From contig CAWKAR010000039.1 of NCBI GenBank assembly GCA_963847625.1, positions 1 to 64,000 on the forward strand: a DNA stretch of 64,000 nt, in the 5' to 3' direction. The notes below the pieces were generated by a model. That model saw nothing but the letters and a program-made list of their open reading frames with translations. It did not search any database and was not told the DNA's origin. The DNA is from a candidate division FCPU426 bacterium (lineage in GTDB: Bacteria > Oederibacteriota > Muellerivitia > Muellerivitales > Muellerivitaceae). Made by a program: the position numbers and the translations under genes. Positions 18,897 through 50,470 of the stretch are shown one piece after another (position 1 is the stretch's first letter; each line of letters starts with the position of its first letter).

Positions 18897-19330
18897 GGGG
18901 ATAAACTGCCCACATTCCTGGTGTCATTTTCCGACAAGGGAGGATAACCCGCCCACAAACCCAGTGTCATCTACCGGCAGGGGAGGATAACCCGCCCACA
19001 AACCCAGTACACAGGGCCGCGAACCCAGTACGCAGGAGGATAAACCGCCCACATTCCCAGTACACAAGGCCGCGAACCCAGTACGCAGGAGGATAAACCG
19101 CCCACAAACCCAGTACACAAGGCCGCGAACCCAATACGCAGGAGGATAAACCGCCCACATTCCCAGTACACAAGGCCGCGAACCCAGTGCAGGGGAGGAT
19201 AAACTGCCCACATTCCTAATGTCATATGCCGGTAAGAGAGGATAAACTGCCCACATTCCCGGGAACATCCGTCGGAATGGGAGATAAACTGCCCACATTC
19301 CCGTCGGCATTCCGGGAAACCTGGTGTCAT
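18897..19330. repeat. Non-coding tandem array of nine GATAA(A/C)C(T/C)GCCCACA(TT/AA)CC cores
   Basis: GATA at 18900, 18943, 18986, 19039, 19092, 19145, 19198, 19241 and 19283; periods 43, 43, 53, 53, 53, 53, 43, 42. Confidence 0.92.
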
Positions 19331-19870: not shown

Positions 19871-19932
19871 TTAAAATGTTGTCTGTCAGCCAGGCCCCAT
19901 AAATTTAAAATGTTGAATGTTGGCCAGACCCC
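19871..19932. repeat. Two 28-bp direct repeats ending GCCAG(G/A)CCCC, resembling the RAYT terminal repeat
   Basis: 19871-19898 and 19905-19932 are 23/28 identical; the last 12 nt of the second copy match 23902-23913 at 10/12. Confidence 0.7.
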
Positions 19933-21214: not shown

Positions 21215-21379
21215 ATGAAGCGTTTAATTTTAGTCGCAGTGGCGGCATCCATCACGATGGGGATAAGCCTGGCCCAGGCGGCAACGTCCGCGCCGACGTC
21301 GGTAAAGGCTCCCAAGGCGGTGATGGCACCCAAAGCGGTAATGACACCTAACCCCGCTTTGAAAAACGTAAACATATAA
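21215..21379 (+). pseudogene. 3'-truncated secreted protein (54 aa), probably the same family as its upstream neighbour
   Basis: AAGGAGG RBS; MKRLILVAVAASITMGISLAQA signal peptide; Ala/Pro/Lys linker; TAA falls exactly at the IS left end. Not in the ORF track. Confidence 0.6.
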
Positions 21380-21491
21380 GATAGCATGTATGGGCCAGCA
21401 ACCTACGTAGTAGCTTTGATCAATAGTAGCTGATCAAAATAACGCGGGTTGCTCCTGGTAAGGAGCCTATCCGCATACGGAGGGCTGACCC

Positions 21492-22598
21492 ATGGGAAAT
21501 AATAGCACGGTGGTAGGGCTGGATGTTCATAAGGAAACGATCACGATTGCAGTTTTAAGGCCCGACAAGGATCGTCCTGATCCCTCGGTTACGGTTGAAA
21601 ATCAGCCATCAATCATTGAAAAGAAAGTACGGGAACTTAATCGCCGCCATGCCCCACTGGAATTCGTTTATGAGGCTGGGCCTGGGGGATTTGCTTTGTA
21701 TAGGCAGATTACCCAATTGGGACACCCTTGTGCGGTGATTGCGCCCGCATGGATGCCGATGAAACCTGGGGACCGAGTCAAGACGGACCGAAAGGACGCA
21801 GAAAAGCTGTCTTGGTATTGGCGCATGAGGGATTTGAAAGAAGTCCGGGTACCCACGCCCGAAGAAGAATCCGTGAGGGATTTGCTGCGTGTCCGGGAAG
21901 ATGTTCTCGCAAACCAGTTGAGAGCCCGTCATCGGTTATTGAAATTCCTGCTTAGGCAAGGCCGGATTTATCGGGGTGGCAAACACTGGACCCAAGCCCA
22001 TAGGGAATGGTTGAGACACCAGAAGTTTGAGCTGCCAAATCTCGTAAAGACCTATGAAGCGAATTACCGAATTTTGGCTGAGATTGACGTGCACTTGGCT
22101 GATTTGAATTGTGAAGTTGAATTGCTGGCACAAGACGAGAAATATCGAATTGCTGTCAGCTATTTGAAATGCCTGAAAGGCGTTAACACACTCACGGCCA
22201 TGACTTTATTAGCAGAAAGCGGAGATTTCAGGCGGTTTAAAAACGCCCGCAGTTATATGCGATATACGGGAATGGTCAGTTGGGAAGACAGCACCGGAAG
22301 CCATGTTTACCGGGGCGGGATTGTCAAATCCGGAAATGCCCATTTGAGGCGAGTGCTAGTCCAAGGGGCATGGACCTATCAGCTACGAAGCCTTGGGAGT
22401 CCAACACTCGCTAAACGGAGAAAAGGTTGTCCCCCGGAAGTTATACATTTAGCACGAAAAGCTGATGAACGTTTGCATTTGAAGTTTCGGCGGATGGTAA
22501 GCCGAAACAAACGGTCTCAGGTGGCGGTAGTGGCCATCGCACGGGAATTGGCTGGCTTTATCTGGGCGATTGGACAGATGATCCCATCCGATCAGTAA
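21492..22598 (+). CDS. IS110-family DEDD recombinase/transposase
   Basis: VGLDVHK, YEAGP and KTDRKDA in the RuvC-like domain; Y(T)GMVSWEDSTG serine loop; KSGNAHLRRVL; VAVVAIARELAGFIWA. Confidence 0.96.
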   Translation: MGNNSTVVGLDVHKETITIAVLRPDKDRPDPSVTVENQPSIIEKKVRELNRRHAPLEFVYEAGPGGFALYRQITQLGHPCAVIAPAWMPMKPGDRVKTDRKDAEKLSWYWRMRDLKEVRVPTPEEESVRDLLRVREDVLANQLRARHRLLKFLLRQGRIYRGGKHWTQAHREWLRHQKFELPNLVKTYEANYRILAEIDVHLADLNCEVELLAQDEKYRIAVSYLKCLKGVNTLTAMTLLAESGDFRRFKNARSYMRYTGMVSWEDSTGSHVYRGGIVKSGNAHLRRVLVQGAWTYQLRSLGSPTLAKRRKGCPPEVIHLARKADERLHLKFRRMVSRNKRSQVAVVAIARELAGFIWAIGQMIPSDQ

Positions 22599-22626
22599 TA
22601 GATCCGATGAGAAGAAAAAGAAGGAC

Positions 22627-22828
22627 GAGCTCTGATTTCAGGAGCGTGGCGCGGCACGGAGAACCCTCGACGACCCCTTGTGCAATGAAGTCTTATTTCA
22701 TGACGCACGGACAAAGATCGAGGCAGCTCCCGACGACAGGTCATCATGCGTCCCTGCCCTTTGGGGTAATACGCGAATATCAGTTTGATCAACCGTCGGA
22801 AATGGCTACGCTCTTGGAATCAGGGCTC
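22627..22828 (+). ncRNA. Putative bridge RNA / seekRNA of the IS1111-group element
   Basis: A 24-bp closing stem (22627-22650 with 22805-22828; 20 WC + 4 G-U) encloses two stem-loops with internal loops; GACCCCTT matches the target and ATATCAG matches the donor junction. Confidence 0.8.
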
Positions 22829-22918
22829 TGTCGTGCTGGTCCGTGAAAAGACCAACACCCTAGAATCTGAAGGTTGACTGGCCCATACATATCAGGGGTC
22901 AGGCCTGAAAATAGAAAA

Positions 22919-22947
22919 TTGACGAAATGGTATAGGATGTTTATTCT
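22919..22947 (+). promoter_or_regulatory. Putative sigma70 promoter of the RAYT gene, likely leaderless
   Basis: TTGACG-N17-TATTCT; the ATG starts 7 nt after the -10 box and there is no SD. Confidence 0.6.
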
Positions 22948-22953
22948 TTACGC

Positions 22954-23889
22954 ATGAGAAAACCAAGGGTTCATTATCAAGGCGGTTTGTACCATGTGAT
23001 CGCGCGTGGAAACCAAAGACAAAAAGTATTCCTCGGCAAAGAGGATTATTTCAAGTATTTGAAATTAATGGATGATTATTTAGAACAACACGGAATAACA
23101 ATATATGCCTATTGTTTGATGCCCAATCACGTACATGTGTTAGTCGAACAATCCACCGACCAGCCATTGTCCCGTTATATGCAAAGGCTCCAAAGTGCTT
23201 ACACCAGTTACTTCAACCGTAAACATAAGAAAGTAGGGCATTTATTCCAGGGCCGTTATAAAGCCATTTTGGTGGATAAAGATACATACTTGTTGGAGTT
23301 GATCCGGTATATCCACTTAAATCCCATGCGGGCGAAACTTGAGGAAAAGGTAGGTGTTTATCCCTGGACTGGACATGCGCAATACCTGGGTATGGTCAGG
23401 GGAAATGCAGTGAGAATTGACACGGGAAAGATATTGCCCATGTTTGGAAAGATCGGTAAAAAAGCTATTAAGGCCTATCGGCGTTTCGTATTGGAAGGTG
23501 TTGGCCAGGGGCATCAGGAGGAATTCTACGACCTCAGGAGGGGCCACATATTGGGGGGAGAGGATTTCGAAATCCAGGTGCATGAAAAGATCCTCAACCA
23601 AAAGGTGGAGCCGAGCTTAAAGATAAAAGCATCGATGGACCGTATATGGGAAAAGATCAAGGAAAGGGAAGGGGTAAAGGATGATCCAATAGGGTGGAAA
23701 AGAAGCCGTTGCATGGGAGAGGCGGCCTATTTGGGGGTGGAAGGATGCGGGCAAACCCAAAAGGAAGTGGCGAAATTTTTCGATGTAGATCCGACCACGA
23801 TTAACAAATCGTTGAAACGTTTGAAGAGAGTGTGGAAAGAGAACCCGCGGGAGGCGAAAGAATTTCAGCATTGGGCAAAGACGTTATAA
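22954..23889 (+). CDS. REP-associated tyrosine transposase-like HUH endonuclease (Y1) with C-terminal HTH
   Basis: YHVIARGN, YCLMPNHVH (HUH), GHLFQGRYK, RYIHLNP (catalytic Tyr), YPWT; C-terminal QKEVAKFFDVDPTTI HTH. Confidence 0.93.
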   Translation: MRKPRVHYQGGLYHVIARGNQRQKVFLGKEDYFKYLKLMDDYLEQHGITIYAYCLMPNHVHVLVEQSTDQPLSRYMQRLQSAYTSYFNRKHKKVGHLFQGRYKAILVDKDTYLLELIRYIHLNPMRAKLEEKVGVYPWTGHAQYLGMVRGNAVRIDTGKILPMFGKIGKKAIKAYRRFVLEGVGQGHQEEFYDLRRGHILGGEDFEIQVHEKILNQKVEPSLKIKASMDRIWEKIKEREGVKDDPIGWKRSRCMGEAAYLGVEGCGQTQKEVAKFFDVDPTTINKSLKRLKRVWKENPREAKEFQHWAKTL

Positions 23890-23950
23890 TTTTCTTTTTT
23901 CAGGCCTGACCCCCGATTTTTACCCTGGATGCCTTACAATGGGCGCCGCC

Positions 23951-25180
23951 ATGAAACAAGAACAGAAAAACTACCTGCTGGGCATCCTCCACGAGGGGTT
24001 GTGGGGAACGGGCTATGGGTTTTTCATGCCCACCACTATCCTGTCCATGGCCCTGGTGGCCTTGGGGCAGTCGGCCTTCGTGGTGGGGCTGTTGAACGCG
24101 TTTTTTTTCGCCGGGATTTACCTTCCCCAGGCTTTTTCCGCCCTGGGCCTGCCACCCCGTTTCACGAACCCCAAACCCCTGGCTTGGCTTCACGTGCCGG
24201 CCATCACGGGACCCTTGGTCGCAAGTTTGGGATTTTTCCTGGTGCCCCAAGGCCTGACTACCGTAAGGCTTTTATTTCTTTTTTCCGGTTTTACCTTGTT
24301 CGCGGTTGGCGTCGGGGTTGTCGTGCCCCATTGGGTGGCTTTCATCGGACGGAGCATTGCCGTCAACAGGAGGGGGCGGTATTTCGGCACCAGCTTTTTC
24401 GCCTCGGGCCTATGCAGTACCGTCTCCGGATGGCTGGCCGGCCGCTGGGCCGTCCAGGGGAGGCTCCAATGGGGCTATGCGCTAAGTTTCCTTTGCGCCG
24501 TGCCCCTGCTGGCCGCCAGCGTTTTGGTTTTAACCCGCATGAAGCCCCTCCTCCCCAAACCGGAACCCCCGCCCGCCCAGGCGCTGCGAAATAGTTTCCG
24601 TCTCATTAAAAACAAGCTGGCGGAGAGCGCGCCGTTCCGCGCCGGTATCTCGCTGGTGGTGCTGTTGATCATCACCGCCTCCTCAGGCTCCCTCTTTATC
24701 GTCTACCTGCAGAAAGTCGTTCTGGTAGATGCATCCTGGCTCCCATTTTTCACCCCGGCCATGACCTTGGGCGGCATGGCAGGAGCCTATCTATTGGGCC
24801 ATGTGGCGGACCATAGGGGCATCCGCGGCGCCTACACCCTGGCCTTTTTAAACGGCCTATTGGCGCTGGCGCTGGTTTTCTTTTTCAGGAACCCCATTCT
24901 CAACAGCTTGGCTTTCGCCTGCCTGGGATGCCTGATCTCATCTTTCTCGGTCGTCAATTCGGTGATGATCCTGAAACTGGCGGGGCGGAAGGAAAGCAGC
25001 ATCCAGATGGGATTTTTCAACACCCTGATGGGTCCCTGGAATTTCATCGCGCCATTATTTTCGGGCTGGCTGGCGGGCTATTTTGGGTATGGTTGGGCTT
25101 TTTCGCTGTCCGCGGCCTGCGTCCTTTCGGGTTTCGGGATTCTCGCCTTCCACCGGTCGTGGGAAACGAAGGCACGGTAG
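23951..25180 (+). CDS. MFS transporter
   Basis: About 12 hydrophobic segments; RRGRYFG and GHVADHRGIR (MFS motif A-like). Confidence 0.85.
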   Translation: MKQEQKNYLLGILHEGLWGTGYGFFMPTTILSMALVALGQSAFVVGLLNAFFFAGIYLPQAFSALGLPPRFTNPKPLAWLHVPAITGPLVASLGFFLVPQGLTTVRLLFLFSGFTLFAVGVGVVVPHWVAFIGRSIAVNRRGRYFGTSFFASGLCSTVSGWLAGRWAVQGRLQWGYALSFLCAVPLLAASVLVLTRMKPLLPKPEPPPAQALRNSFRLIKNKLAESAPFRAGISLVVLLIITASSGSLFIVYLQKVVLVDASWLPFFTPAMTLGGMAGAYLLGHVADHRGIRGAYTLAFLNGLLALALVFFFRNPILNSLAFACLGCLISSFSVVNSVMILKLAGRKESSIQMGFFNTLMGPWNFIAPLFSGWLAGYFGYGWAFSLSAACVLSGFGILAFHRSWETKAR

Positions 25181-50284: not shown

Positions 50285-50394
50285 AACCCGGTGAACGCTG
50301 CTGGCACCCAGTACGCGGGGCCGGGAACCCAGTATAGGGTGCCGTAAACCCGGTATTTGGAGAGATAACCCAGTAAACGGAGACGGTAACCCAG
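50285..50394. repeat. Six (A/C)ACCC(A/G)G motifs with 20-21-bp period
   Basis: Starts at 50285, 50305, 50326, 50347, 50367 and 50388; 50307-50334 is 25/28 identical to 19003-19030. Confidence 0.85.
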
Positions 50395-50470
50395 ATAGCA
50401 TGAATGGGCCAGCGACCTTCGTAGTAGGCTTTGATCAATAGCAGCTGATCAAAATAACGCGGGTTGCTCC
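50393..50470 (+). mobile_element. Isolated left end of a sister IS1111-group element
   Basis: Matches 21379-21455 with 4 substitutions and 1 indel; the match begins exactly at AGATAGC. Confidence 0.9.

What the first reader, a model, noticed from the sequence alone, without database searches (positions are those of the whole stretch)
22627..22828. Bridge/seek RNA apparently programmed against the RAYT terminal repeat
Seen: a 24-bp closing stem whose four non-WC pairs are all G-U on the + strand. Domain 1 (CCTCGA 22665-70 with TCGAGG 22718-23; inner GTGC/GCAC) exposes GACCCCTT (22672-79), the exact reverse complement of AAGGGGTC spanning the reconstructed empty site. Domain 2 (CGACG/CGTCG) contains ATATCAG (22777-83), identical to the donor end plus core. 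Known: IS110/IS1111 recombinases use such target and donor guides and often target repeats of other elements. Inference: this element parasitises GGGGTC-tipped RAYT repeats and is a candidate new programmable recombinase. Caveat: the opposite loop strand (GGACAAAGA) matches the left flank only at AAG.
Basis: partly seen in the sequence, partly recalled or inferred. Interest (0 to 1): 0.8.

Follow-up and report, generated by a model that had tools for sequence, protein, structure and literature searches.

The report
RNA-guided IS1111-type element targeting TIRtron repeats
A small jumping gene carries a guide RNA that spells the tip of another mobile element's terminal repeat, and all its copies in this genome sit at such repeats; the mechanism is already known, and only this choice of landing site seems undescribed.

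Summary
Positions 22627-22828 encode the predicted bridge/seek RNA of an intact IS1111-group element (about 21379-22893, ISSso6/ISEc45/ISCARN28 subgroup).

The genome holds 9 near-identical copies. All 9 right junctions are GGGGTCAG-type repeats: 7 exact, 2 with one change. The 'unmatched' loop strand GACAAAG is the second target guide. Left flanks match it at 3.8/5 on average against 1.9/5 at empty repeats; the window copy is the worst match, 1/5.

Guides covary with targets across 9 clusters of relatives (0/20000 permutations). A 92%-identical sister element has changed both guides and its target.

The target is a TIRYT/TIRtron repeat (GGGGWSAS), not a REP. Only 3 of 9 copies flank a Y1 gene, and insertion leaves the GGGGTCAG tip intact, so 'parasitises' is not shown. 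No RNA, circle or activity data were found.

This is a new member of a known kind. The scan noted a similar case on other DNA (e1-7670569). Unexplained: 9/9 sites carry AG just past the guided bases.

The parts
21379..21385 (+). Left terminal extension, 7 bp, beginning with the AG core
   Evidence: Identity among copies begins here; 7 bp left / 3 bp right is the IS1111 rule (PMC11187229, passage)
21386..21398 (+). Left subterminal inverted repeat (13 bp perfect)
21382..21387 (+). Predicted -10 box (TAGCAT) of the promoter formed on circularisation, 17 bp from the -35 box
   Evidence: inference, circle not observed
21492..22598 (+). IS110-family recombinase, 368 aa; D11, E61, D99, D102; T268 aligns with IS621 S241 (S-T-G motif)
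   Evidence: NF033542 at 204.6 bits, cut-off 140; PF01548 and PF02371; alignment to IS621 and ISCro4; residue numbers
22627..22828 (+). Predicted bridge/seek RNA: closing stem, target-binding domain, donor-binding domain
   Evidence: no Rfam match at E<=1; identical in all 9 copies
22672..22679 (+). 5' target guide, complementary to the top strand: last flank base, AG core and GGGTC
22710..22716 (+). 3' target guide, identical to the top-strand left flank plus core (GACAA-AG)
22717..22718 (+). Handshake-like dinucleotide (AT) equal to the first two bases of the left end after the core
   Evidence: 1.68/2 against 1.07, 7 of 20000 permutations
22743..22745 (+). Short, weak left donor guide (ATC)
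   Evidence: 2.11/4 against 1.49 across clusters (71 of 20000); 2/4 in this element
22777..22783 (+). Right donor guide plus core, identical to 22889-95
   Evidence: nearly invariant in the family, so covariation is uninformative
22874..22879 (+). Predicted -35 box (TTGACT) of the junction promoter
   Evidence: inference
22878..22893 (+). Right subterminal inverted repeat (22878-90) and 3-bp extension (22891-93)
22894..22895 (+). Second AG core: last flank base plus first G of the repeat
22895..22920 (+). Occupied terminal inverted repeat of the TIRYT element, left intact
22954..23889 (+). Y1/HUH transposase, RAYT-like, TIRYT type, 311 aa
   Evidence: PF01797; NF047646 at 78.8 bits, just under cut-off 80; GGGGTCAG repeats on both sides
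23888..23913 (-). Sister terminal repeat, empty; preceded by G, so it offers no AG core

Best explanation
This is the right-end bridge/seek RNA of a recently mobile IS1111-group element of the ISSso6/ISEc45/ISCARN28 subgroup. Inferred by analogy with tested systems: the element excises as a circle, the end junction makes a promoter (TTGACT-17-TAGCAT), and recombinase and RNA are expressed. Shown from sequence: one loop reads both target strands around an AG core (CT on the other strand, as in IS621), with GACCC-CT for the right half and GACAA-AG for the left half. The other loop matches the element's own end junction, and a handshake-like dinucleotide matches the donor side. The address is the junction between the A-rich outer flank and the GGGGTCAG tip of TIRYT/TIRtron repeats. 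The element therefore lands just outside a dispersed non-coding repeat family and restores the repeat's tip.
For: 9 near-identical copies with 0-2 substitutions, none in the RNA. Right flanks: 7 GGGTCAG, 1 GGGTTAG, 1 GGATCAG. Left flanks average 3.78/5 against the 3' guide, versus 1.38 at all AG sites and 1.88 at 33 empty AGGGGTCAG sites (0 of 20000 draws each). Covariation over 31 loci in 9 clusters: left target 3.02/5 versus 1.60, right target 3.83/5 versus 1.53 (0 of 20000 each); handshake versus donor 7 of 20000, versus target 10793 of 20000. The copy in G001 (92% aa) has both guides changed and sits at CC-AG-TATT, while G001 has 20 uninterrupted AAAGGGGTCAG sites. Six copies of a 53% relative in G045 carry other guides and all sit at AG-TTGT in another repeat. 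The guide order (top-strand match first) and the 7/3-bp extensions are those reported for IS1111.
Against: No expression, RNP, circle or activity data: no joint was seen in contigs of 4 runs, which cover the element only in pieces. The window copy matches the left guide at 1/5. Several relatives fit poorly (L023, L084, L091). The left donor guide is weak and the right one uninformative. The covariation test used 31 of 114 loci after automatic filters, and kin are not fully independent. Pairing of left and right flanks could be scrambled by assembly. Guide pairing alone does not explain why many equally good non-repeat sites are empty.
Confidence: 0.92

Rival explanations
1. Guide pairing is real but not sufficient. 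A second determinant (recombinase contact with the AG at +6/+7, DNA structure of the repeat, or bound TIRYT protein) steers the element to the repeats.
For: 9 of 9 sites have AG at +6/+7, where the RNA offers A,C with no Watson-Crick pairing. Background among comparable empty sites is 4-37% (10 of 27 in the most favourable non-coding set). Poorly matched repeat sites are used (window 1/5 left; C19 and C55 4/5 right), while most of the 35 one-mismatch empty sites are not repeats. The G001 site also has AG just past its 4 matched bases (n=1).
Against: Purifying selection against insertions in genes and tRNAs could give part of this; the coding mask was crude (ORFs of 150 aa or more). Close metagenome relatives show AG at 2 of 4 sites (L027, L028 yes; L030, L031 no). 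More distant relatives pair these positions with their guides or show no AG rule.
Confidence: 0.25
2. The element does not target the repeats; it was carried about as a passenger of the repeat or TIRtron, or the copies are an assembly artefact.
For: All copies adjoin the same repeat family. One 127-nt left-end fragment lies directly before a full copy on C24, which looks like an assembly seam.
Against: The repeats behind the copies differ beyond the first 8-11 bases, and left flanks are unrelated beyond the guided bases. Copies fall into three sequence variants. Independent metagenome contigs at 89-90% aa also sit at GGGTC or GGGCT. Changed guides go with changed targets.
Confidence: 0.03
3. 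Targeting is by the protein alone and the structured stretch is a terminator or other regulatory RNA with chance matches.
For: The long stem follows the stop codon; the single matches are short (70 and 541 of 5000 shuffles).
Against: Guide-target covariation, a 92%-identical protein at a different target with changed guides, and four inner helices kept in 18-20 of 20 homologues.
Confidence: 0.02

Closest known systems
[quoted passage not shown]
   Same: Recombinase 36% identical to ISSso6 and 37% to ISEc45 over about full length; both fall among this element's relatives in the tree, apart from IS5075 (midpoint root). The ISSso6 downstream region aligns with this RNA. ISCARN28 is 44% identical to ISSso6 in the published matrix.
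   Different: Different guides and target. I did not compare ISCARN28 directly. No paper naming ISSso6 or ISEc45 together with bridge RNA or seekRNA came up, so I saw no bench test of this subgroup.
ISEc11, ISKpn4, ISPa11 seekRNAs (IS1111 family; PMC11187229)
   Same: Downstream non-coding region, subterminal repeats with 7/3-bp extensions, top-strand match 5' of bottom-strand match, S(t)G motif, natural reprogramming between relatives.
   Different: The published matrix puts ISSso6 at about 20-25% identity to these core IS1111 elements; this protein is 368 aa against their 330-350 aa range. Here a donor-matching loop and a handshake-like signal are visible too.
IS621 and ISCro4 bridge recombinases (PMC11208160, PMC11208158; PDB 8wt6, 9t56)
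   Same: DEDD plus Tnp domains, two-loop RNA, CT core when read on the other strand, handshake position matching the donor.
   Different: RNA lies after the gene, not before it; long subterminal repeats; weak left donor guide; Thr at the catalytic Ser position; distant homology only (E 1e-10 and 6e-7).
IS4321 / IS5075 (target Tn21-family terminal inverted repeats; Partridge and Hall 2003, seen only as a reference title)
   Same: IS1111-group elements aimed at another element's GGGG-tipped terminal repeat; IS5075 also has S-T-G.
   Different: 26% identity. The IS5075 copy examined splits the repeat internally, whereas this element inserts at the tip and restores it.
TIRtrons / TIRYT (PMC3733652; TnpA-Y1 subclass 2.1 in 10.1101/279083): the target element
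   Same: Y1 transposase flanked by long inverted repeats with GGGGWSAS, plus dispersed solo repeats.
   Different: The passages read do not mention an IS110/IS1111 element that targets these repeats.

Membership tests
IS110 family | DEDD RuvC-like domain plus Tnp domain | tested here: met
   NF033542 above cut-off; PF01548 and PF02371; D11, E61, D99, D102 align with IS621 D11, E60, D102, D105
IS110 family | Catalytic S(t)G motif in the Tnp loop | tested here: met
   S267-T268-G269; TG is an accepted IS1111 variant; among 94 homologues 60 SSG, 8 STG, 2 TSG, 24 not matched by the pattern
IS110 family | Specific target with a short core and no other duplication | tested here: met
   AG at both junctions of the 7 copies with both flanks; empty A-AG-GGGTCAG sites exist
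IS110 family | Circular intermediate with junction promoter | tested here: inconclusive
   Promoter predicted with 17-bp spacing; no joint in contigs of 4 runs that cover the element in pieces
IS1111 group | Subterminal inverted repeats of 11-13 bp with 7-bp left and 3-bp right extensions | tested here: met
   13-bp perfect repeats, 7/3 extensions (rule)
IS1111 group | Long non-coding region downstream of the gene; top-strand match before bottom-strand match | tested here: met
   295 nt right end against 113 nt left end; 22672-79 precedes 22710-16
IS1111 group | Transposase related over full length to core IS1111 elements | tested here: inconclusive
   26% to IS5075 over 305 aa; 36-37% to ISSso6 and ISEc45, which PMC11187229 lists as IS1111 although about 20-25% to core members. 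A divergent subgroup.
Bridge/seek RNA | Target guides covary with both target halves | tested here: met
Bridge/seek RNA | Donor guides match and covary with the end junction | tested here: inconclusive
   7-nt right donor match, almost invariant (4458 of 20000); left donor signal weak (71 of 20000)
Bridge/seek RNA | RNA is expressed, binds the recombinase and is needed for recombination | not testable with these tools
   No RNA holder listed
TIRYT / TIRtron (target) | Y1 HUH transposase flanked by long inverted repeats with GGGGWSAS | tested here: met
REPtron (RAYT with GTAG REP hairpins) | Flanking REP hairpins tagged with GTAG | tested here: not met
   The flanks are long inverted repeats, not hairpins; NF047646 score just under cut-off

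The most novel reading that the evidence does not exclude
Target choice has two layers. The RNA reads 12 bases, but a second determinant not encoded in the guide (recombinase contact at +6/+7, repeat structure, or the TIRYT protein itself) licenses insertion at TIRtron ends. The IS could then also bracket and move TIRYT genes, as the two inverted copies around one such gene on contig C24 hint. This recombinase may use threonine as its nucleophile.
Probability: 0.15. Interest if true: 0.65.

Novelty: new member of a known kind. Interest (0 to 1): 0.38.

Why it matters
It is a clean natural test case of bridge-RNA logic in a divergent IS1111 subgroup for which I found no bench data. There are nine insertions from one guide, a 92%-identical sister with both guides rewritten, and a handshake signal in a right-end RNA. 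It adds TIRtron repeats to the known list of landing sites (REPs, Tn21 ends). As a tool it would be one more orthologue with a CT/AG core. It would matter more if the unguided AG preference is mechanistic, since that would be a PAM-like rule or a helper-protein dependence.

Tried and rejected
Rfam: no match at E<=1 in 21300-24000.

Sequencing runs: no RNA holder listed. Contigs of 4 DNA runs showed no joint and no piece spanning the locus. Neither bears for or against expression or circles.

The first automatic end-finder missed the genome's own copies and was replaced. The second still mis-called some ends or stems. Of 39 rows with loops, 8 were dropped by rule before the statistics (L009, L034, L035, L054, L058, L059, L080, L106: no AG core called at both junctions, or too little flank).

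Donor-loop handshake against target or donor: no signal (6053 and 8729 of 20000). Strand preference by folding energy across homologues: 11 of 20, not discriminating.

The Thr at the catalytic position was considered as a novelty and rejected as such, because TG is a described IS1111 variant and IS5075 has it.

The idea that the window's left flank is a rearranged remnant was not needed: related TIRYT genes have similar TA-rich upstream flanks. No empty version of this exact locus was obtained.

The look-up of earlier findings by protein sequence gave nothing. ISCARN28 and ISPye17 were not compared directly. Supplementary Table 5 of PMC11208160 was not seen (file cut; one PDF unreadable), nor one PDF of PMC11187229; either could list this subgroup's targets. 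No covariance model, structure prediction or complex prediction was made.

Full report
Observation. The + strand folds far better than shuffles (z -6.07) and the - strand barely does (z -1.78). The two short matches are individually modest: 70 and 541 of 5000 shuffles reproduce one of them, and 8 reproduce both. Rfam has no match.

The element. The RNA lies in the right end of an intact IS110-family element. The ORF at 21492-22598 passes NF033542 and has both Pfam domains. Its D11, E61, D99 and D102 align with the IS621 catalytic residues, and T268 aligns with S241. Perfect 13-bp subterminal repeats lie 7 bp inside the left end and 3 bp inside the right end, the IS1111 rule (PMC11187229, passage). 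Joining the ends would place TTGACT and TAGCAT 17 bp apart; this promoter is an inference. The nearest named elements found are ISSso6 (36%) and ISEc45 (37%); IS5075 is at 26%. PMC11187229 lists ISSso6 and ISEc45 as IS1111 family, and its matrix places ISCARN28 at 44% to ISSso6 (source data). ISCARN28 is one of six elements whose bridge RNA was predicted in PMC11208160 (legend). The subgroup's RNA is therefore already predicted in print.

Copies in the genome. There are 9 full or nearly full copies and 2 short left-end fragments. They differ by 0-2 substitutions, all in the gene. Right of the AG core, 7 of 9 read GGGTCAG, one GGGTTAG and one GGATCAG. The 9 left ends with flank (7 full copies and the 2 fragments, which probably belong to the two copies at contig ends) score 5, 5, 5, 4, 4, 4, 3, 3 and 1 out of 5 against GACAA. 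The mean is 3.78, against 1.38 for all AG sites and 1.88 for the 33 empty AGGGGTCAG sites (0 of 20000 draws each). The order of the matches (top strand first) is that of IS1111 seekRNAs (PMC11187229 section 9). Read on the other strand, the core is CT, as in IS621.

Covariation. Of 114 loci (106 from the genome), 94 held a full gene, 51 gave both ends, 39 gave both loops and 31 passed the core and flank filter, in 9 clusters at 70% identity. Left target against 3' guide scored 3.02/5 versus 1.60 under permutation, and right target against 5' guide 3.83/5 versus 1.53 (0 of 20000 each). The two bases after the 3' guide match the donor left end (1.68/2 versus 1.07; 7 of 20000) and not the target, as described for handshake guides (PMC11208158 and PMC13626964, passages). 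The left donor guide signal is weak (71 of 20000) and the right one uninformative. L023, L084 and L091 fit poorly.

Natural reprogramming. Two cases fetched later were not in that test. G001, of the same genus, has one copy at 92% aa in which both guides and the adjoining stem have changed, and it sits at CC-AG-TATT. The right half matches 4 bases; the left half matches 2 of 5 in register. That genome has 20 uninterrupted AAAGGGGTCAG sites. The tree places G001 as sister to the window element, with a GGGTC-guided metagenome copy outside (92/85, unstarred), so the change probably arose in the G001 line. G045 has 6 copies of a 53% relative with other guides, all at AG-TTGT in another repeat. Four inner helices are kept in 18-20 of 20 homologues; the closing stem varies in sequence, and its pairs are kept in only part of the rows in an unguided alignment.

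The target. The neighbouring gene is a Y1 transposase between inverted repeats that start GGGGTCAG. This fits TIRtron/TIRYT with the GGGGWSAS motif (PMC3733652 and 10.1101/279083, passages). The genome has three such genes. Three of 9 copies adjoin one: the window copy and both ends of the gene on C24. The other 6 sit at repeats with no Y1 gene beside them; four are clear members of the dispersed family, and C19 and C55 look by eye like degenerate members. In related genomes one repeat subtype is preceded by A-rich, often ACAAA, flanks at both ends. The guide thus reads the flank-to-tip junction and fits that subtype best; the window repeat is of another subtype. The core is the last flank base plus the first G, so the GGGGTCAG tip is restored after insertion. 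The IS5075 copy examined splits its target repeat internally. The window's sister repeat is preceded by G, has no core and is empty.

Unexplained. All 9 sites have AG at +6/+7, which the RNA does not encode. Among comparable empty sites this holds for 4-37%, depending on the set, and most of the 35 one-mismatch empty sites are not repeats. Selection against insertion in genes may explain part of this; a protein- or structure-based determinant is not excluded. Close metagenome relatives show AG at 2 of 4 sites.

What was not shown. Expression, RNP formation, circles and activity. No RNA run was listed and contigs of four DNA runs showed no joint; this is no evidence either way.

Novelty. RNA-guided targeting, right-end RNAs, repeat and terminal-repeat targets and natural reprogramming are all described (PMC11208160: passages, section 12, parts of supplements; PMC11187229: abstract, sections 6, 9, 13, passages, source data). 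Searches for RAYT/IS110/terminal inverted repeat, TIRYT/TIRtron/GGGGWSAS, bridge recombinase/IS1111/natural target/repeat, ISSso6/ISEc45 with bridge RNA or seekRNA and IS110 with tyrosine transposase listed no paper on an IS110/IS1111 element aimed at TIRtron repeats. I judged this from listings and the passages named; the library lacks most subscription papers, and some supplements were unseen. The scan itself noted a similar case in another genome (e1-7670569, unchecked).

Verdict. Real and well supported by sequence evidence; a new member of a known kind; interest 0.38.

Noticed in passing
window 50393-50470: Isolated left-end relic of a sibling element (94% over 78 nt); its flank ends AACCC-AG, closer to the G001-type guide than to this element's.
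   Followed up: partly
G000 C24 98684-102730: A TIRYT gene with one IS copy at each terminal repeat, in inverted orientation; a composite-like arrangement. A 127-nt left-end fragment just before it may be an assembly seam.
   Followed up: partly
G000 C3 32913-33992 and C13 3913-4992: A second element of the same subgroup (50% aa, 2 copies) with other guides that match its own sites.
   Followed up: yes
G000 C21 17608-18675, C30, C14: A third, distant IS110-family element (29% aa, 3 copies) with GAATT-type sequence at both junctions; the C21 copy lies about 200 bp from a TIR-family repeat.
   Followed up: no
L109 (G006 C85 32724-32901): Truncated RNA of this family with a changed 5' guide, ending next to a GAACAAAGGGGTCAG repeat near a TIRYT gene with one stop codon.
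   Followed up: partly
L031: A 13-bp tandem duplication of the right junction in a metagenome copy whose 3' guide and left flank both have A for C.
   Followed up: no
window 19000-19303: Tandem 53-bp and 42-bp repeats; about 630 bp further on, an empty degenerate TIR-family repeat on the - strand at 19932.
   Followed up: no
window 21215-21379: A 54-aa ORF with a signal-peptide-like start (judged by eye) whose stop codon supplies the A of the left core; possibly truncated.
   Followed up: no
G000 C45 38858 and C60 10709: tRNA-like sequences (recognised from memory, not scanned) match the guide with one mismatch and are empty.
   Followed up: no
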